The notes beneath the pieces were generated by a model. The model had not been told where the DNA came from. It did no database searches and saw nothing but the letters and a program-made list of their open reading frames with translations. This document shows positions 16,814-20,123 of a stretch of 24,000 nt of DNA, one piece after another. The translations under genes were made by a program, and so were the position numbers. This stretch comes from Mycolicibacterium sphagni. GTDB lineage: Bacteria; Actinomycetota; Actinomycetes; Mycobacteriales; Mycobacteriaceae. The stretch spans positions 82,177 to 106,176 of the forward strand of contig NZ_VBSB01000001.1 in NCBI RefSeq assembly GCF_013337765.1. The letters are read 5' to 3'. Each line of letters begins with the position of its first letter. Within the stretch, counting starts at the first letter, position 1.

Positions 16814-17272
16814 ATGAGGATGAAAGCGGCGGCGCTGGCCGCAGCAGTGACACTGTCTGTCGTGCTTGCCCCGACCGCGGCAGCCGATCCGAGCGTCGAC
16901 AAGTTCGGCGGCTGGAACCACCTCGTCGACAACGGCGGCACGTCGATCACGGTCTGGAAGATCAGCGATCTGAAGCCGAGCTCCGACACCATCCCGGGCT
17001 ACCCGCTGGCGGGCAAGCTGTGGGAGGCCACCGCCAAGGTCCGCGCCGCCAAAGGTGGCGTTACGCCGATCATTCCGGACTTCAACGCCCGCGCCGCTAA
17101 TGGCGCCAACTACCCGGTGCTGTGGCAGGCCGCCACACCGCAGGGCATCAGCGGTGCGACGCTGCTGCCGGGCGACTCGTCCTGGGGCAAGCTGTATTTC
17201 GACGTGACCGGCCCGGCGCCCACCCAGGTCGTCTACAACAACGGGGTCGAAGACCTGCTGGTCTGGAAGTAA
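16814..17272 (+). CDS. MPT63/MPB63-family secreted protein (beta-sandwich antigen family)
   Basis: From ATG 16814 the sequence is MRMKAAALAAAVTLSVVLAPTAAADP (signal peptide). It continues WKISDLKPSSDTIPGYPLAGKLWEATAKVRAAKGGVTPIIPDFNARAANGANYPVLWQAATPQGISGATLLPGDSSWGKLYFDVTGPAPTQVVYNNGVEDLLVWK. This aligns almost residue-for-residue with M. tuberculosis MPT63 as I recall it (WKVSDLKSSTAVIPGYPVAGQVWEATATV...GKIYFDVTGPSPTIVAMNNGMEDLLIWEP). Confidence 0.88.
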   Translation: MRMKAAALAAAVTLSVVLAPTAAADPSVDKFGGWNHLVDNGGTSITVWKISDLKPSSDTIPGYPLAGKLWEATAKVRAAKGGVTPIIPDFNARAANGANYPVLWQAATPQGISGATLLPGDSSWGKLYFDVTGPAPTQVVYNNGVEDLLVWK

Positions 17273-17277
17273 CTCAG
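17258..17277. repeat. Direct repeat, left copy: CTGGTCTGGAAGTAACTCAG
   Basis: This 20-nt string is identical to 20104-20123. It extends to 27 nt with 2 mismatches (17251-17277 vs 20097-20123). It contains the last codons and TAA stop of the MPT63-like gene. Confidence 0.95.
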
Positions 17278-17306
17278 GCGCAGCTGAAACCCGCCACACT
17301 GTTCGT

Positions 17307-17699
17307 ATGGCGTATCTCAAGCCGACGTGGTTCGAGAAGAAGTTCAGCAGCATCATGGCCGGGGCCAACGTCGCTGAGAGGCTGACGGTGACCGGGCGTG
17401 TCAGCGGCGATCCGCATCAGGTTGCCGTCACGAGTGTCGACGTGAACGGCGTGAAGTATCTGGTGTCCACACGCGGGGAGAGTCAGTGGGTGAAGAACAT
17501 CCGTGCGAACCCCAACGTGACCCTTACGGTGAAGGGCAAATCCACCGCATACGTTGCGGCTGAGGTGCCAGTGCAGGAGCGGGCGCCGATCATTGCAGCT
17601 TTCAGACCCATCCTCGGCACATTGCTGGTCGGTCGGTACTTCGCAAAACTGCCAGCAGATGCCGATCACCCCACCTTCGCGCTGGCGCCGTCAAGCTAA
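17307..17699 (+). CDS. Deazaflavin(F420)-dependent oxidoreductase / nitroreductase family protein (Ddn-like, DUF385 split-barrel)
   Basis: 130 aa: LTVTGRVSGDPHQVAVTSVDVNGVKYLVSTRGESQWVKNIRANPNVTLTVKGKSTAYVAAEVPVQERAPIIAAF. This matches the family pattern TGRKSG-x-R-x-xPV...YLVS..G...DWV.N..ANP.V.L...G......A.E....ER. Confidence 0.7.
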   Translation: MAYLKPTWFEKKFSSIMAGANVAERLTVTGRVSGDPHQVAVTSVDVNGVKYLVSTRGESQWVKNIRANPNVTLTVKGKSTAYVAAEVPVQERAPIIAAFRPILGTLLVGRYFAKLPADADHPTFALAPSS

Positions 17700-18575
17700 C
17701 CGCGATCGGGACCGGCTTTCTTGGCTGGCCCACGATGCCAACAGGGCCAGATTCTCAGCGGTCGGCCCGCCCGCGGGTGCGGTGTAGACATTCAACTGCA
17801 GGCCAGGGTCGGTGGGCAGATCCATGGACTCGAAATTCAAGTCGAGCCGGCCCACGACCGGATGGTTCACACGCTTGCTCCCGTATCCCTTCAGCCGGAC
17901 GTCCTGAGATGCCCACTGCTGTCGGAATAGCTCGCTGCACATTGATAATTCGTCCACCAAGGCGATGAGTTCCTCGTCGTGGGGATTACGGCCCAGTTCC
18001 ATACGCAACATCGCGGCCGCATTCCGGGCCACCAGGTCGTAGTCAACGAAGAACGTCTCGGCCTCGATGGGATTCAAGTACACGAACCGCACGGTGTTGG
18101 CGGGCCGTCGAGGGTCGGTAAGCACCGGTGAATACAACGCGCGTCCAAGGTGATTCACCGCGAGAACGTCATAGCACCCATTGCGGATCAACGCCGGCGC
18201 ACCGGTAATGGCATCGAGCATTTCCTGCAGCGCCGGGCGCACCGTCGCGGAAGTCTTGCGGTGTCGTCGACCGCTGGGCGCCCCGGACTGGCGTGCGAGA
18301 TGGAACAGGTGATCGCGCTCCGCTTCGTTGAGCTGCAAGGCGGACGATAGCGCGTCGAGCACGCCCTCTGAGGTGCCAGCCAGGCTGCCGCGCTCAATGC
18401 GCACGTAATACTCGACCGATACCCCAGCGAGTAGCGCAACCTCCTCTCGACGCAGACCCTTGACCCGACGATTCCCGCCGTAGGCGGGCAATCCAGCCAT
18501 CTCAGGCGCGATGCGGGCGCGACGCGACCTCAGAAACTCCCGGATTTCGGTGCGCAGGTCAAGCGTGGCGGCCAT
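17691..18575 (-). CDS. MmyB-like helix-turn-helix transcriptional regulator (XRE-type HTH plus PAS-like ligand-binding domain)
   Basis: 294 aa: LREFLRSRRARIAPEMAGLPAYGGNRRVKGLRREEVALLAGVSVEYYVRIERG. This is the signature N-terminus of the MmyB/MltR family, followed by a domain of about 170 aa. The stop overlaps the convergent Ddn-like gene by 9 nt. Confidence 0.8.
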   Translation of the reverse strand: MAATLDLRTEIREFLRSRRARIAPEMAGLPAYGGNRRVKGLRREEVALLAGVSVEYYVRIERGSLAGTSEGVLDALSSALQLNEAERDHLFHLARQSGAPSGRRHRKTSATVRPALQEMLDAITGAPALIRNGCYDVLAVNHLGRALYSPVLTDPRRPANTVRFVYLNPIEAETFFVDYDLVARNAAAMLRMELGRNPHDEELIALVDELSMCSELFRQQWASQDVRLKGYGSKRVNHPVVGRLDLNFESMDLPTDPGLQLNVYTAPAGGPTAENLALLASWASQESRSRSRLA

Positions 18576-18633
18576 TCACTCACCGTAGGCCCGCACCGCA
18601 GGCGAAGGGAGGTACCGCCAATACCCTGAAGCA

Positions 18634-19428
18634 TCACGCGGTCGTGGCGATCCCTCCGTCGACAGGGATGATGGTGCCCGTTAGGTAAGCTCCTGCCCGG
18701 CTGGCGAGGAACACGGCGACACCCGCCATGTCGTCGTCGCGGCCGATCCGGCGCAGCGGGGCCGACGCCGCGATCGCCTCGCCGAACTCATCGAGGGTCG
18801 CAGCCATCATCGTCGACGGAAACGGTCCCGGCGCCACCGCGTTCACCGTGATGTGCTGCGGGCCCAGCTCCTTGGCGAGCACCCTGGTGAGTTGATGCAG
18901 CGCAGCCTTACTGCTGGAGTACGAATAGTTGGGCCGCGCAGGGATGTGGATGGCGGCGATGCTGCCGATGTTGATGATCCGCGCGGGATCGTCGGCGGTC
19001 CCGGCGCTGCGAAGTGCAGGCAGCAGCGCCTGCACCAACCAAAACGGCGACTTCAGGTTGACGTCGATAACGGTGTCCCAGGCTGCGTCTGGGAATGTCG
19101 CCAACGGCTCGTCCCACATTGCACCCGCATTGTTGACGAGGATGTCGAGACTCCCCGAGTCGGCCGTGACGAGGTGAGCGAGGTGCTCACACTCTTCGTG
19201 CCGGGACAGGTCGGCGGGGACCGCCCAGACGTCGCCGAATTCGGACAGCTGTTCCTGCGCCTGAGCGCACGCTTCTGCGTTACGTGAGCTGATGACCACG
19301 CGGGCGCCCGCCTGGAGAAGCCCGCGCGCAATCATCATCCCGATGCCCCTGGTGCCGCCGGTGACGAGGGCCCGCTTACCAGTCAGGTCGAAACGTTCTG
19401 CATGCGTTGTGAACTGGCTGTCTACCAC
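18634..19428 (-). CDS. Short-chain dehydrogenase/reductase (classical SDR)
   Basis: 264 aa with TGGTRGIG cofactor motif, NNAG, catalytic S...YSSSK and a PG motif (APGPFPS). GTG start at 19428 with a GAGGAAGG Shine-Dalgarno about 7 nt upstream. Confidence 0.92.
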   Translation of the reverse strand: MVDSQFTTHAERFDLTGKRALVTGGTRGIGMMIARGLLQAGARVVISSRNAEACAQAQEQLSEFGDVWAVPADLSRHEECEHLAHLVTADSGSLDILVNNAGAMWDEPLATFPDAAWDTVIDVNLKSPFWLVQALLPALRSAGTADDPARIINIGSIAAIHIPARPNYSYSSSKAALHQLTRVLAKELGPQHITVNAVAPGPFPSTMMAATLDEFGEAIAASAPLRRIGRDDDMAGVAVFLASRAGAYLTGTIIPVDGGIATTA

Positions 19429-19593
19429 CTGTCACCTTCCTCATTGGTCGGACAAGACTGTCAGTTGATGGCGCCGTCTCTTCGTAACAAAGCTAGGCGG
19501 TGTTGCAGACGCCTAGGAGATCCCCGTAGTAGGGGTACTGCCAGACTCCCCCTTGTCCGGTTCGGTGACGTTGCCATCTCCGTTTGAGGACCG

Positions 19594-20091
19594 ATGGTCT
19601 GCCACACTGGGGCGATGGCACCTCAGCGCACCGTGCTTCGTGCGGCGACTTCTGACGATGACGCGTTCGTCGTCGAGATGGCCCGTCACGCCTGCGTCAT
19701 TGAAGATCGGCCTCTTCCCGACCCCGATGACGACGAAGTGCTGGAGATGCTGCCGCCTGCCGGGGTGGTGCCGATCATTGCCGAGGATCAAAGTGGCACA
19801 CCCGTCGGTGCGGTGTGGACCTATCACAGCACTCCGCCGTTGCGCTGTGATGCGGCGGGTGCGCCATTGCCCGAACTGTGCATCGCTGTTGCACCAGGGC
19901 GCCGCGGCGCCGGCATCGGTGGCATGCTGCTCGACGCACTGGTCGCCGATCTTGCCAGGCACTACGACACGATGTGCACCAACGTCCACGTGCGCAATCC
20001 CGCAAAGCGCCTGTACGAACGCAAGGGTTTTCGCGTTGTCGGCCAGGGTAATGGTCCGCTAGGGCTCGCGCTCGTCAAAGACCTTCGATGA
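19594..20091 (+). CDS. GNAT family N-acetyltransferase
   Basis: 165 aa with acetyl-CoA motif A (IAVAPGRRGAGIGGMLLDALV) and a C-terminal NPAKRLYERKGFRVVG. The start may instead be ATG 19615 (MAPQRTVLRAATSDDD). Confidence 0.8.
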   Translation: MVCHTGAMAPQRTVLRAATSDDDAFVVEMARHACVIEDRPLPDPDDDEVLEMLPPAGVVPIIAEDQSGTPVGAVWTYHSTPPLRCDAAGAPLPELCIAVAPGRRGAGIGGMLLDALVADLARHYDTMCTNVHVRNPAKRLYERKGFRVVGQGNGPLGLALVKDLR

Positions 20092-20103
20092 TTCCCAGAC
20101 TTC

Positions 20104-20123
20104 CTGGTCTGGAAGTAACTCAG
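20104..20123. repeat. Direct repeat, right copy: CTGGTCTGGAAGTAACTCAG
   Basis: Identical to 17258-17277. It contains a relic ...LVWK-TAA reading frame of the MPT63-like gene, and the TGA stop (complement of 20120-20122) of the minus-strand LLM monooxygenase. Confidence 0.95.

What the first reader, a model, noticed from the sequence alone, without database searches (positions are those of the whole stretch)
17258..20123. Perfect 20-bp direct repeat brackets a 2.85 kb four-gene cassette inserted between two abutting convergent genes
CTGGTCTGGAAGTAACTCAG occurs at 17258-17277 and again at 20104-20123, an offset of 2846 bp. Similarity extends to 27 nt with 2 mismatches. The repeat contains the last four codons and TAA of the MPT63-like gene. 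On the other strand, 1 nt later, it contains the TGA of the NtaA/DszA-like monooxygenase. Removing one repeat plus the intervening DNA restores two intact convergent genes whose stops are 1 nt apart. This is the signature of an insertion that duplicated its target, leaving a relic DFLVWK-stop frame at the right end. The cassette has no transposase, no integrase and no terminal inverted repeats. A 20-bp duplication is also longer than typical IS target-site duplications. The mechanism is therefore unexplained; possibilities include an att-like core for an integrase acting in trans, microhomology/NHEJ-mediated capture, or gene conversion. By eye, the interior looks somewhat more AT-rich than the flanks.
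Basis: seen in the sequence. Interest (0 to 1): 0.7.

Follow-up and report, generated by a model that had tools for sequence, protein, structure and literature searches.

The report
Gene-end relic marks recombination insertion hotspot
The 20-bp repeat is a leftover copy of the end of a secreted-protein gene, left when accessory genes were added between two back-to-back genes at a spot in soil mycobacteria where genes are repeatedly gained, lost and swapped without any visible mobile-element enzyme.

Summary
The 20-mer occurs exactly twice (about 0.002 pairs expected), brackets four genes, and two relatives carry the predicted empty site base for base. The interpretation needs revising.

- The window is Mycolicibacterium sphagni core chromosome.
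- The right-hand copy is a decaying relic of the DUF1942/MPT63-like gene's 3' end. It is 23-27 nt here and about 38-42 nt, more diverged, in another species carrying the same four genes. It is therefore not a fixed 20-bp target-site duplication, and the insertion is old.
- The "cassette" is a mosaic of three modules with atypically low GC3.
- The TCAG after the left copy belongs to a relic of a different gene, a pentapeptide-repeat gene.
- The interval holds at least eight different contents among relatives.
- The same gene-end relic marks at least three separate insertions.
- None of these states has a transposase, integrase or terminal inverted repeats.
- Identity profiles show that whole haplotypes are exchanged by homologous recombination.

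Best reading: this is a mobile-element-free gene-transfer hotspot at abutting convergent genes, where duplicated gene ends are both scars and substrates of recombination. A trans-acting site-specific recombinase is not excluded.

The parts
16814..17272 (+). DUF1942 / MPT63-like secreted-protein gene. The start is probably the ATG at 16814 or 16820; the longest ORF starts at the TTG at 16742.
   Evidence: Pfam PF09167, E=4e-46. Orthologs are 150-152 aa in L152, L153 and L084. Alleles are only 85-92% identical among relatives whose flanks are 92-99% identical.
17251..17277 (+). Left copy of the repeat: the intact 3' end of the DUF1942 gene (…DLLVWK, TAA at 17270-72), a 1-nt spacer (C, 17273) and TCAG (17274-77).
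17274..17295 (+). 'p': relic of the 3' end of a convergent pentapeptide-repeat (PRP) gene (TCAGGCGCAGCTGA, possibly extending through AACCCGCC). It travels with the F420 gene.
   Evidence: Matches the PRP 3' end TCAGTCGCCGCTGA at 12/14 positions, starting exactly at the stop codon. The homologous position was reached by 6/3000 shuffles in L152 and 0/3000 in both L155 copies. The window alone gives 148/3000.
17307..17699 (+). Module 1: F420H2-dependent quinone reductase / deazaflavin-dependent nitroreductase-family gene.
   Evidence: PF04075. GC3 0.763. It occurs without the other modules in L153, L156 and L088.
17691..19555 (-). Module 2: SDR (18634-19428) plus MmyB-like HTH regulator (17691-18575), with about 125 nt of upstream sequence.
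   Evidence: Pfam. The same module lies at about 87% nt identity in unrelated chromosomal contexts in L085 and L087, with homology limits at window 17680/17722 to 19552/19561.
19594..20091 (+). Module 3: GNAT acetyltransferase gene.
   Evidence: Pfam. GC3 0.687. It is absent from L155. Homologs lie on mycobacterial plasmids beside Tn7-like, toxin-antitoxin and IS256 genes.
20097..20119 (+). 'm': right copy of the repeat, a non-coding relic of the DUF1942 3' end (reads DFLVWK*) directly abutting the monooxygenase stop codon.
   Evidence: nhmmer profile of functional 3' ends: window 20096-20118 E=0.011, L152 E=0.0025, L084 38 nt at E=4e-4. Colinear local alignment was reached by 0/2000 shuffles.
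20120..21439 (-). Luciferase-like (NtaA/DszA-type) monooxygenase. It is the first gene of a block (monooxygenase, small membrane protein at 21436-21777, SSF transporter at 21805-23340, second luciferase-like gene from 23377) that was itself inserted at an older DUF1942|PRP junction.
   Evidence: PF00296. Orthologs are 93-99% aa identical in several different contexts. A DUF1942-end relic lies between the far end of the block and the PRP gene in L152 (1/5000 shuffles), L156 (3/5000) and L153 (27/5000).
15425..16729 (+). Gly/Ala-rich ORF: a second variable slot, on the upstream side of the DUF1942 gene.
   Evidence: Present in the window, L006, L089 and L155. Absent in L004, L005, L088 and L153. 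A two-component system occupies the slot in L084 and L152.

Best explanation
The repeat is the displaced 3' terminus of the DUF1942/MPT63-like gene. It is a scar of additive recombination at a place where two convergent genes abut with their stop codons 1 nt apart. DNA can be added there without destroying either gene only if the gene ends are duplicated. The locus is a gene-transfer hotspot free of mobile elements.

Shown:
1. Exact empty sites exist.
2. The right copy is an eroding relic: 23-27 nt here and 38-42 nt in L084.
3. The insert is a mosaic of three modules with atypical GC3. It is as diverged between species as the backbone, so it is old.
4. The same kind of gene-end relic marks at least three separate insertions. 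One is the monooxygenase block at an older DUF1942|pentapeptide-gene junction. One is the F420-gene unit. One is an amidohydrolase gene in L155.
5. The F420 gene is bracketed by copies of the terminus in two different arrangements, and it carries a relic of the pentapeptide gene's end on its left.
6. Haplotypes are exchanged between lineages by homologous recombination.

Inferred:
- Once cargo lies between the intact gene and a short downstream relic of its own end, ordinary recombination can move it. One route is Campbell-type integration of a circularised fragment. Another is a double crossover that uses the gene body and the relic as arms.
- Either route can add the cargo to any genome with a DUF1942 ortholog, and can delete it precisely to give the empty site.
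- The perfect 20 nt here would then be the part of the relic refreshed by the latest crossover or gene conversion.
- The primary duplications must have arisen by an illegitimate event, either one-ended homologous plus illegitimate joining or duplicative break repair. I cannot identify which.
For: - Empty sites: L006 and L090 are exact; L005 has an extra 5-bp tandem duplication.
- Relic extent and decay.
- Same four genes in L084 and L152. Cassette divergence from L084 is 86-92.5% nt against a backbone of 83-93%.
- Other contents of the same interval: L004 lipoprotein ORF, L153 F420 gene plus 381-aa ORF, L155 amidohydrolase plus three of the four genes, L138 with the monooxygenase missing, L088.
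- Nested 42-nt imperfect repeat around the amidohydrolase gene in L155.
- Relics on both sides of the F420 gene in L156: reached by 0/5000 and 8/5000 shuffles.
- Relic between the PALP leader and the PRP gene in L152, L156 and L153.
- Pentapeptide-end relic left of the F420 gene.
- Module boundaries. GC3 0.69-0.81 against 0.85-0.91.
- No recombinase, transposase, phage gene or terminal inverted repeat in the window or in any haplotype's gene table.
- Recombination tracts: the DUF1942 gene is 89% identical to L005 while the flanks are 96-98%, and L005's advantage over other species disappears in the last 400 nt of the monooxygenase gene. The window and L152 are 98-99% identical from the DUF1942 gene to the SDR gene, against 95-96% in the backbone.
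- Literature: hotspots without mobile elements turn over by recombination at flanking core genes (PMC5635113). One-ended homologous/illegitimate 'displacement' leaves orphaned 3' ends (PMC5361080). Single crossover of truncated circles gives target duplications (PMC3240628). Mycobacterial distributive conjugal transfer gives mosaic genomes (PMC3706393).
Against: - Recombination on only 20-40 nt of homology is inefficient and is not demonstrated here.
- The model does not explain the primary duplications. The 42-nt repeat around the L155 amidohydrolase looks like a de novo duplication, and homologs of that gene lie in unrelated contexts.
- Two relics start at nearly the same gene position: about -37 next to the PRP gene and about -38 next to the monooxygenase in L084. 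The insertions all involve the same roughly 14-nt stretch, CTGCTGGTCTGG. Both facts could instead point to a site-specific enzyme.
- The relic calls in L004, L153 and L155 are individually weak (nhmmer E = 0.4-2.5). They rest on lying at the predicted position.
- Only about 15 haplotypes were sampled, and several come from short metagenomic contigs.
- Whether the empty state is ancestral or derived cannot be settled.
Confidence: 0.6

Rival explanations
1. Site-specific recombination in trans. The last roughly 40 nt of the DUF1942 gene would be an attB-like site for a tyrosine or serine recombinase encoded elsewhere in the genome or on a visiting element. Integrase-less cassettes flanked by att copies would be integrated, accreted in tandem and excised. 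This would resemble pseudo-SCC elements at rlmH, or cis-mobilisable elements derived from ICEs.
For: - Recurrent use of the same gene end by different cargo.
- Nested repeats typical of tandem accretion.
- The F420 gene is flanked by copies of the sequence in two different arrangements, which is expected if a circle integrates at either of two att copies.
- Two relics have similar left boundaries, near -37.
- Precise empty sites exist.
Against: - No integrase or recombinase in the window, in about 10 kb of flanks, or in any of roughly 10 haplotypes.
- The cargo genes are ordinary chromosomal metabolic or regulatory genes. They arrive as one- or two-gene pieces, not as decayed prophage or ICE remnants.
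- The repeat boundaries differ between events: about -38 to +5, against -23 to +19 in L155.
- The junction and cassette are absent from the phage and plasmid collections.
Confidence: 0.15
2. Each insertion is an independent de novo duplicative illegitimate event. One possibility is capture of a DNA fragment at a staggered double-strand break, with fill-in by Ku/LigD end joining. Another is replicative template switching that returns upstream of its departure point. Selection then keeps only events that duplicate both gene ends.
For: - The L155 amidohydrolase insert is a single gene from an unrelated context, flanked by a 42-nt duplication. The two copies differ at 6 positions, which fits drift after a lineage-specific event.
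- A 5-bp tandem duplication lies exactly at the junction in L005.
- A breakpoint lies at the same point in L138.
- There is no recombinase.
- Mycobacteria possess NHEJ (general knowledge, not tested here).
Against: - Overhangs or duplications of 40-70 nt are far longer than documented end-joining fill-ins (my knowledge).
- This model does not explain why the F420 gene carries a pentapeptide-gene relic at a junction where that gene is not adjacent.
- It does not explain why the same relic-cargo junction (GNAT-relic) is shared across species.
- The junction has no significant hairpin that would make it fragile (z = -0.8).
Confidence: 0.2
3. Polarity rival. The filled state is ancestral to this clade, and the empty sites in L005, L006 and L090 are secondary precise deletions by recombination between the gene end and its relic. 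On this view the window's genome did not receive an insertion.
For: - States containing the F420 gene occur on 5 of 8 sampled backbones, including the most diverged ones.
- Cassette divergence is about equal to backbone divergence.
- Recombination between direct repeats would regenerate exactly the observed empty sequence.
Against: - L005, the closest empty relative, carries a DUF1942 allele only 89% identical to the window's. It did not arise by simple in-situ deletion from a window-like ancestor.
- The low GC3 of the cassette genes shows they are accessory.
- Recombination between lineages blurs any parsimony argument.
Confidence: 0.3
4. Classical IS or transposon insertion with a target-site duplication, the element having since lost its transposase.
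For: Direct repeats flank an insert that is absent from relatives.
Against: - No transposase in any haplotype.
- No terminal inverted repeats.
- The repeat is imperfect, 20-42 nt long, and differs in extent between lineages.
- The insert is a mosaic of modules found separately elsewhere.
Confidence: 0.02

Closest known systems
[quoted passage not shown] 2017, PMC5635113)
   Same: The interval lies between conserved genes. Gene turnover among close relatives is rapid, with at least 8 contents. There is no integrase or transposase. The flanking genes show recombination tracts and phylogenetic incongruence.
   Different: Here the insertion point is a 1-nt gap between abutting convergent genes. 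Successive additions are marked by nested relics of one gene's 3' terminus. That model does not predict such relics, and they imply an additive step, not just replacement.
C-terminal displacement and orphan arrays at Rhs, CDI and T6SS effector loci, proposed to arise by homology-facilitated illegitimate recombination (Kirchberger et al. 2017, PMC5361080; Jackson et al. 2009, cited therein)
   Same: A conserved gene serves as the upstream anchor. New DNA is added immediately after it. Old 3' ends are pushed downstream and persist as orphaned fragments. Serial events build an array.
   Different: No toxin-immunity logic applies. The incoming DNA does not bring a new, different C-terminus. The relics are only 20-42 nt of an unchanged terminus. 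The cargo genes are unrelated metabolic or regulatory genes in both orientations.
Integrase-mediated islands at the 3' ends of genes, with tandem accretion and integrase-less derivatives mobilised in trans (SCCmec and pseudo-SCC at rlmH; CIMEs of streptococcal ICEs; actinomycete AICEs). Cited from my own knowledge.
   Same: Direct repeats contain the target gene's 3' end. The gene is restored after insertion. Different cargo uses the same site. Repeats are nested. The empty site is precise.
   Different: No recombinase gene was seen in any occupant or flank. The repeat boundaries are not constant. The cargo pieces are single chromosomal-type genes. Excision was not tested.
Campbell-type single-crossover integration of circular DNA carrying a partial copy of the target (for example E. 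coli conjugation products, PMC3240628)
   Same: It produces an insert flanked by a direct duplication of the shared segment without any dedicated enzyme. The duplication length equals the length of homology carried.
   Different: The duplications documented there were 109-950 bp. Here the shared segment is only about 20-45 nt, and the source of a circle is hypothetical.
IS or transposon target-site duplication
   Same: Direct repeats of target sequence flank inserted DNA.
   Different: The length is 20-42 nt and variable, against a fixed 2-15 bp. The copies are imperfect. There is no transposase and there are no inverted repeats.

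Membership tests
IS / transposon insertion | Transposase gene in the element | tested here: not met
   Pfam and PHROGs scans of all four cassette genes and of the cargo in relatives found none. 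The gene tables of L084, L152, L153 and L155 show none.
IS / transposon insertion | Terminal inverted repeats at the element ends | tested here: not met
   The first 80 nt against the reverse complement of the last 80 nt scored 12, with a shuffle mean of 13. No terminal pair appears.
IS / transposon insertion | Short target-site duplication of fixed length | tested here: not met
   The duplication is 20-27 nt here, 38-42 nt and diverged in L084, and 42 nt with different boundaries in L155.
Integrase-mediated genomic island (att-flanked) | Direct repeats at both ends that include the 3' end of the target gene and restore it | tested here: met
Integrase-mediated genomic island (att-flanked) | Integrase or recombinase gene in the element or adjacent to an att site | tested here: not met
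   None in the 24-kb window and none in any related haplotype with 5-10 kb flanks. A recombinase encoded elsewhere in the genome could not be examined.
Integrase-mediated genomic island (att-flanked) | Same crossover boundaries in independent integrations | tested here: inconclusive
   Two relics start near position -37/-38, but the L155 event spans -23 to +19.
Integrase-mediated genomic island (att-flanked) | Excision to a circular form and regeneration of attB | not testable with these tools
   This needs PCR or long-read data from cultures. Naturally occurring exact empty sites exist, but they do not show excision.
Mobile-element-free HGT hotspot (Oliveira et al. 2017) | Interval bounded by conserved genes, with high turnover of accessory genes among close relatives | tested here: met
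   At least 8 different contents lie between the DUF1942 gene and the monooxygenase or PRP gene.
Mobile-element-free HGT hotspot (Oliveira et al. 2017) | No mobility-associated proteins | tested here: met
Mobile-element-free HGT hotspot (Oliveira et al. 2017) | Elevated homologous recombination or incongruence in the flanking genes | tested here: met
   Identity profiles and allele matrices. These are informal; no formal recombination test such as ClonalFrameML was run.
Displacement / orphan arrays (Rhs, CDI, T6SS) | Conserved 5' gene body followed by serially displaced 3' fragments | tested here: met
   Relics next to the monooxygenase, next to the F420 gene (L155, L156) and next to the PRP gene.
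Displacement / orphan arrays (Rhs, CDI, T6SS) | Each incoming unit brings a new variable C-terminal domain with a cognate immunity gene | tested here: not met
   The terminus is the same sequence in all copies. The cargo genes are an F420 reductase, a regulator, an SDR, a GNAT, an amidohydrolase and a lipoprotein.
Integron cassette array | IntI integrase with attI, and attC sites at cassette ends, with cassettes co-oriented | tested here: not met
   No integrase was found. The genes lie in both orientations. The boundary repeats are a gene's 3' end and not attC-like inverted repeats. No dedicated attC model was run.

The most novel reading that the evidence does not exclude
The last roughly 40 nt of the DUF1942/MPT63-like gene is the attachment site of an unrecognised recombination system in environmental mycobacteria, acting in trans. 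The system would shuttle integrase-less one- to four-gene cassettes between copies of this sequence, whether functional gene ends or their relics. That would explain why three or more independent insertions carry the same terminus, and why the F420 gene sits between two copies in two different arrangements.
Probability: 0.12. Interest if true: 0.75.

Novelty: new variant of a known kind. Interest (0 to 1): 0.4.

Why it matters
The locus shows in unusual detail how accessory genes can be added between two genes that have no intergenic space and no visible mobile-element machinery. Each addition duplicates a gene end. The leftover copies record the order of events. They may also serve as portable homology arms that let the cargo spread to any relative carrying the gene. 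If this is general, short relics of gene 3' ends could be used as markers to find and date enzyme-free insertions in mycobacterial and other GC-rich genomes. They would also give a concrete substrate for testing how distributive conjugal transfer, homologous recombination and end joining build the accessory genome. If a dedicated recombinase is involved instead, it would be a new cassette-mobilisation system.

Tried and rejected
1. Fragile hairpin or cruciform at the empty junction. Folding gives z = -0.8, which is not significant. Only the distant DUF1942|PRP junction folds well, at z = -3.15.
2. Two allele classes of the DUF1942 gene, filled against empty. The alleles do not cluster by state.
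3. One-ended homology model in which the L155 amidohydrolase arrived downstream of a donor DUF1942 gene. Its closest homologs (81-86% identity) lie in unrelated contexts and homology is confined to the coding sequence. The true donor was not found.
4. Origin of the cassette or junction from a plasmid or phage. Only partial gene-level hits were found, none covering the unit or the junction.
5. Tn7-like targeting, suggested by a GNAT fragment beside tnsABC-tniQ on an M. avium plasmid and by the 5-bp duplication in L005. There is no Tn7 gene or end at this locus in any haplotype, so I treat this as coincidence.
6. Two-step model: a small tandem duplication first, then insertion into it. It is disfavoured because in L155 the cargo sits exactly at the boundary between the two copies.
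7. Part of the PALP leader carried along inside the L084 relic. My own manual base-by-base comparison of the sequences printed gave 4 of 15 matches, which is no support.
8. Relic next to the PRP gene. I rejected it at first because there was no nhmmer hit and nothing in L004, L005, L084 or L155. Direct alignment then showed it is real in L152, L153 and L156.
9. Promoter and terminator scan of 16600-20500: nothing found.
10. Retrieval of the M. sphagni contig beyond the window's right edge failed. Only a 2.6-kb contig was returned.

Full report
**1. The observation**

The 20-mer CTGGTCTGGAAGTAACTCAG occurs at 17258-17277 and 20104-20123 and nowhere else in the window, even with 2 mismatches allowed. 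None of 100 shuffles produced a match. About 0.002 exact 20-mer direct-repeat pairs are expected in 24 kb of this composition. The similarity extends to 27 nt with two mismatches (family D14).

The left copy is the last four codons and TAA of a DUF1942/MPT63-like gene (PF09167, E=4e-46). In the right copy the TCA at 20120-22 is the stop codon of a luciferase-like monooxygenase on the other strand, 1 nt after the relic TAA.

Four genes lie between the copies:
- an F420H2-quinone-reductase-family gene
- an MmyB-like HTH regulator
- an SDR
- a GNAT

There is no transposase or integrase in these genes or anywhere in the window. The rest of the window is core chromosome: icd, folD, a Cys/Met PLP enzyme behind a SAM-IV riboswitch, a TetR regulator, an OYE-family reductase and an FHA-ABC transporter. 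The cassette ends are not inverted repeats. Contigs from two independent sequencing runs reproduce both junctions.

**2. Organism and composition**

The regulator is 100% identical to a Mycolicibacterium sphagni protein. Overall GC of the insert is 0.635, only slightly below the flanks (0.645-0.688). Third-position GC separates the two sets clearly. The flanking genes have GC3 of 0.85-0.91. The four inserted genes have 0.76, 0.74, 0.81 and 0.69.

**3. Empty sites exist**

A scan of one genome per species with the monooxygenase gave 13 orthologous Mycolicibacterium/Mycobacterium loci. Mapping the window's genes onto them and reading the junctions gave these results:
- M. vinylchloridicum (L006) has exactly the predicted empty site, …GACCTGCTGGTCTGGAAGTAACTCAGTACTCCTGCAGGC…, with a single 20-mer.
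- Metagenome contig L090 has the same arrangement.
- MAG nzgw95 (L005) has it with an extra tandem CTCAG.

None of the 13 loci has any cassette gene within 10 kb. The 20-mer is not dispersed: among 158 fetched loci it occurs only at these homologous junctions.

**4. It is not a 20-bp target-site duplication, and it is not recent**

An uncultured Mycobacterium (L084, FLQS01000004) and a Logan contig (L152) carry the same four genes between the same two flanking genes.

In L152 the 20-mer is again perfectly duplicated. In L084 the copy next to the monooxygenase is longer and more diverged: ACGACAACGGAGTCCCAAACCTGCTGGCCTGGACGTAACTCAG. It is colinear with the last roughly 42 nt of the DUF1942 gene (reached by 0/2000 shuffles).

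A profile of 17 functional 3' ends, searched with nhmmer over 765 kb of fetched DNA, finds these relics independently:
- L084: 38 nt, E=4e-4
- L152: E=0.0025
- window: 20096-20118, E=0.011
- L004, L155, L153: weaker hits (E = 0.4-2.5), each exactly at the predicted position

Relative to L084, the window has lost about 36 nt of the relic. Between the window and L084 the cassette is 86-92.5% identical in DNA, the same range as the backbone at 83-93%. So the structure predates the split of these lineages. The right-hand repeat is a decaying, non-coding stub of the gene's 3' end.

**5. The insert is a mosaic**

- The SDR-MmyB pair occurs alone, at about 87% DNA identity, in unrelated chromosomal contexts in L085 and L087. 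Homology to the window ends at about 17680-17722 and 19552-19561.
- The F420 gene occurs without the other genes in L153, L156 and L088.
- The GNAT gene is missing from L155. It has homologs on mycobacterial plasmids beside Tn7-like, toxin-antitoxin and IS256 genes.

**6. The interval is a hotspot with many states**

Reading from the DUF1942 gene towards the monooxygenase:

| Content | Loci |
|---|---|
| Nothing | L005, L006, L090 |
| The four genes | window, L152, L084 |
| A lipoprotein-like ORF plus relic | L004 |
| F420 gene, AT-rich DNA, a 381-aa ORF, a hairpin, relic | L153 |
| Amidohydrolase, F420 gene, MmyB, SDR; GNAT and relic deleted exactly to the monooxygenase stop | L155 |
| F420 pseudogene | L088 |
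| Monooxygenase replaced by another ORF, breakpoint at TAACTC | L138 |

In more distant mycobacteria the DUF1942 gene abuts a convergent pentapeptide-repeat (PRP) gene instead (L091-L096). The upstream side of the DUF1942 gene is also variable: a Gly-rich ORF, a two-component system, or nothing.

**7. Nested scars record several insertions at the same gene end**

(a) In L155 the amidohydrolase gene is flanked by a 42-nt imperfect direct repeat. The repeat consists of the last 23 nt of the DUF1942 gene, the TAG, and 19 nt downstream.

(b) Those 19 nt, and the sequence just left of the F420 gene in all filled genomes, match the 3' end of the PRP gene. The match starts exactly at its stop codon:
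- both L155 copies: reached by 0/3000 shuffles
- L152: 13 of 14 positions, reached by 6/3000 shuffles
- window: 12 of 14 positions, reached by 148/3000 shuffles

So the TCAG that ends the left 20-mer in the window is best read as a PRP relic that travels with the F420 gene, not a copy of the monooxygenase stop codon. Within the window this rests mainly on homology with the stronger matches in L152 and L155.

(c) In L152, L153 and L156 the spacer between the far end of the monooxygenase block (the leader of a PALP gene) and the PRP stop codon is itself a DUF1942-end relic. All three start at the same gene position, about -37, after the same leader. They were reached by 1/5000, 27/5000 and 3/5000 shuffles respectively. 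The monooxygenase block was therefore inserted earlier at a DUF1942|PRP junction, leaving the same kind of scar.

(d) In L156 the F420 gene lies between that relic and a second one next to the PRP gene, reached by 0/5000 and 8/5000 shuffles. The F420 gene is thus bracketed by copies of the terminus in two different arrangements: beside the PRP gene in L156, and beside the intact DUF1942 gene in the window type.

**8. Haplotypes move by homologous recombination**

By backbone genes the window, L152 and L005 are the closest relatives, at 95-98%. Two patterns stand out:
- L005 is empty, and its DUF1942 allele is only 89% identical to the window's. Its advantage over other species disappears in the last 400 nt of the monooxygenase gene.
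- The window and L152 are 98-99% identical from the DUF1942 gene through the SDR gene, but only 95-96% in the backbone.

DUF1942 alleles do not group by filled or empty state. These are recombination tracts. The difference between the window and its nearest empty relative is a swapped haplotype, not a clean insertion or excision at the 20-mer.

**9. Mechanism**

Shown: the scars, the mosaic, the recurrence, the absence of mobility genes, and the recombination tracts.

Inferred: with stop codons 1 nt apart, only additions that duplicate the gene ends leave both genes intact, so selection filters for exactly this architecture. Once cargo lies between the gene and a short relic of its own end, housekeeping recombination can add it to any genome with a DUF1942 ortholog. 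This could happen by a single crossover of a circularised fragment, or by a double crossover using the gene body and the relic as arms. Recombination between the two copies would delete the cargo precisely. The perfect 20 nt followed by abrupt divergence in the window and L152 fits a relic whose distal part was refreshed by the latest crossover or conversion. I could not test this, because all alleles share those 20 nt.

Published parallels:
- mobile-element-free hotspots that turn over by recombination at flanking core genes (PMC5635113)
- 'sequential displacement' by homology-facilitated illegitimate recombination, which leaves orphaned 3' ends (PMC5361080)
- target duplications from single crossovers of truncated circles (PMC3240628)
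- mosaic genomes from mycobacterial distributive conjugal transfer (PMC3706393)

The primary duplications still need an illegitimate step. The 42-nt repeat in L155, around a gene whose homologs lie in unrelated contexts, looks like a de novo duplicative insertion. I cannot say whether that was one-ended recombination, end-joining capture or template switching.

**10. Rivals**

A recombinase acting in trans on an att-like site in the gene end would explain several features: the recurrence, the nesting, the two arrangements of the F420 gene, and the similar left boundary of two relics. Against it, no recombinase appears in any occupant or flank, the boundaries differ between events, and the cargo does not look like a decayed element. 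I give it about 0.15.

Purely de novo duplicative insertions at each event get about 0.2. They fail to explain the PRP relic beside the F420 gene and the junctions shared across species.

Whether the empty state is ancestral or derived is undecided (about 0.3 for 'filled is ancestral').

A classical transposon is effectively excluded.

**11. Things that led nowhere**

- The hairpin idea for the junction.
- Plasmid or phage origin.
- Tn7-like targeting.
- A two-step tandem-duplication model.
- A promoter and terminator scan.
- The attempt to fetch the M. sphagni contig beyond the window.

**12. Verdict**

The feature is not a discrete four-gene cassette recently inserted by an unknown 20-bp-duplicating mechanism. 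It is one state of an old, recombination-driven hotspot at abutting convergent genes, and the 20-mer is the best-preserved part of a gene-end relic. It is a new variant of known kinds: mobile-element-free hotspots and displacement scars. It is moderately interesting, mainly because the nested relics make the history and a possible enzyme-free spreading mechanism directly testable.

Noticed in passing
window 4782-4901 (+): SAM-IV riboswitch (RF00634, 114 bits against a gathering score of 38). It lies immediately upstream of, and overlaps the mechanical ORF call of, a Cys/Met-metabolism PLP enzyme gene (4770-6296).
   Followed up: partly
window 15425-16729 (+): Gly/Ala-rich ORF with internal GGxGG-type repeats and no Pfam hit. 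Its presence varies. It is present in L006, L089 and L155. It is absent in L004, L005, L088 and L153. L084 and L152 have a response regulator plus histidine kinase in its place. So the DUF1942 gene is flanked by variable slots on both sides.
   Followed up: partly
L005 11317-11345 (window-equivalent junction): The otherwise empty site carries a 5-bp tandem duplication, CTCAGCTCAG, exactly between the two stop codons. This widens the spacer from 1 to 6 nt. It shows small duplications arising at this junction. Its origin (slippage or repair scar) is unknown.
   Followed up: no
window 18634-19428; L159 (Streptomyces sp. SAT1 plasmid, 3999-4793): The SDR gene is about 87% identical at DNA level to genes on large Streptomyces linear plasmids. 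In SAT1 the homolog lies beside mycofactocin biosynthesis genes (mftE, mftF). This suggests fairly recent exchange between Streptomyces and Mycolicibacterium.
   Followed up: partly
L085 (original coordinates about 11131-11241 and 14632-14686): Two separate intergenic fragments match the 3' end of the window's GNAT gene (85-93% identity). Each is followed by a similar roughly 35-nt tail. One tail contains the palindrome TAGAACGTGTTCTA. No intact GNAT gene is nearby. These may be further gene-end relics or a small repeat element.
   Followed up: no
L150 (M. avium plasmid pP2-4a, 6147-11377): A truncated homolog of the GNAT gene lies 17 nt from the end of a Tn7-like tnsA-tnsB-tnsC-tniQ module on a mobilisable mycobacterial plasmid.
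   Followed up: no
window 20120-21439; L004-L016: The luciferase-like monooxygenase is unusually conserved, at 93-99% aa identity, across species in which its neighbours differ. L007 and L008 have a second paralog downstream. L009-L016 have unrelated DNA, with no DUF1942 or PRP gene within 10 kb. This suggests that the gene or its block is itself horizontally mobile.
   Followed up: partly
L138 198-780: Here the monooxygenase gene is absent. The DUF1942 stop codon is followed, after TAACTC, by a roughly 170-aa ORF with a C-terminal hydrophobic segment, and then by the small membrane protein and SSF genes. This is another rearrangement with its breakpoint at the same nucleotide position.
   Followed up: no
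L093 6380-6440 (and L091, L096): In distant mycobacteria the DUF1942|PRP junction forms a significant hairpin spanning both gene ends (-10.6 kcal/mol, z = -3.15). The sequence GGTCTGGA pairs with TCCAGACC. It is a candidate bidirectional terminator. The equivalent junction with the monooxygenase does not fold significantly.
   Followed up: partly
L155 12703-12835; also L004, L005, L084, L152, L153, L156: A conserved leader of about 130 nt lies upstream of the PALP (cysteine-synthase-like) gene (…GGGGTCGATACGAAA…TAGCAACG…GGATAAAAGCAGGGTGAATCGAA…). It has no Rfam family at gathering threshold. It may be an undescribed cis-regulatory element.
   Followed up: partly
window 17691-17699: The F420-family gene and the MmyB-like regulator gene converge and overlap by 9 nt. 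F420 genes that lack the neighbouring regulator (L156, L153) have different C-terminal codons, so the module junction lies inside the gene end.
   Followed up: no
L088 1117-1378: The F420-family gene following the DUF1942 gene appears to carry an internal deletion, joining …ERLTV to KGKSTA…. The CTCAG and PRP-relic segment after the stop codon is also missing. It is a probable pseudogene state of the locus.
   Followed up: no
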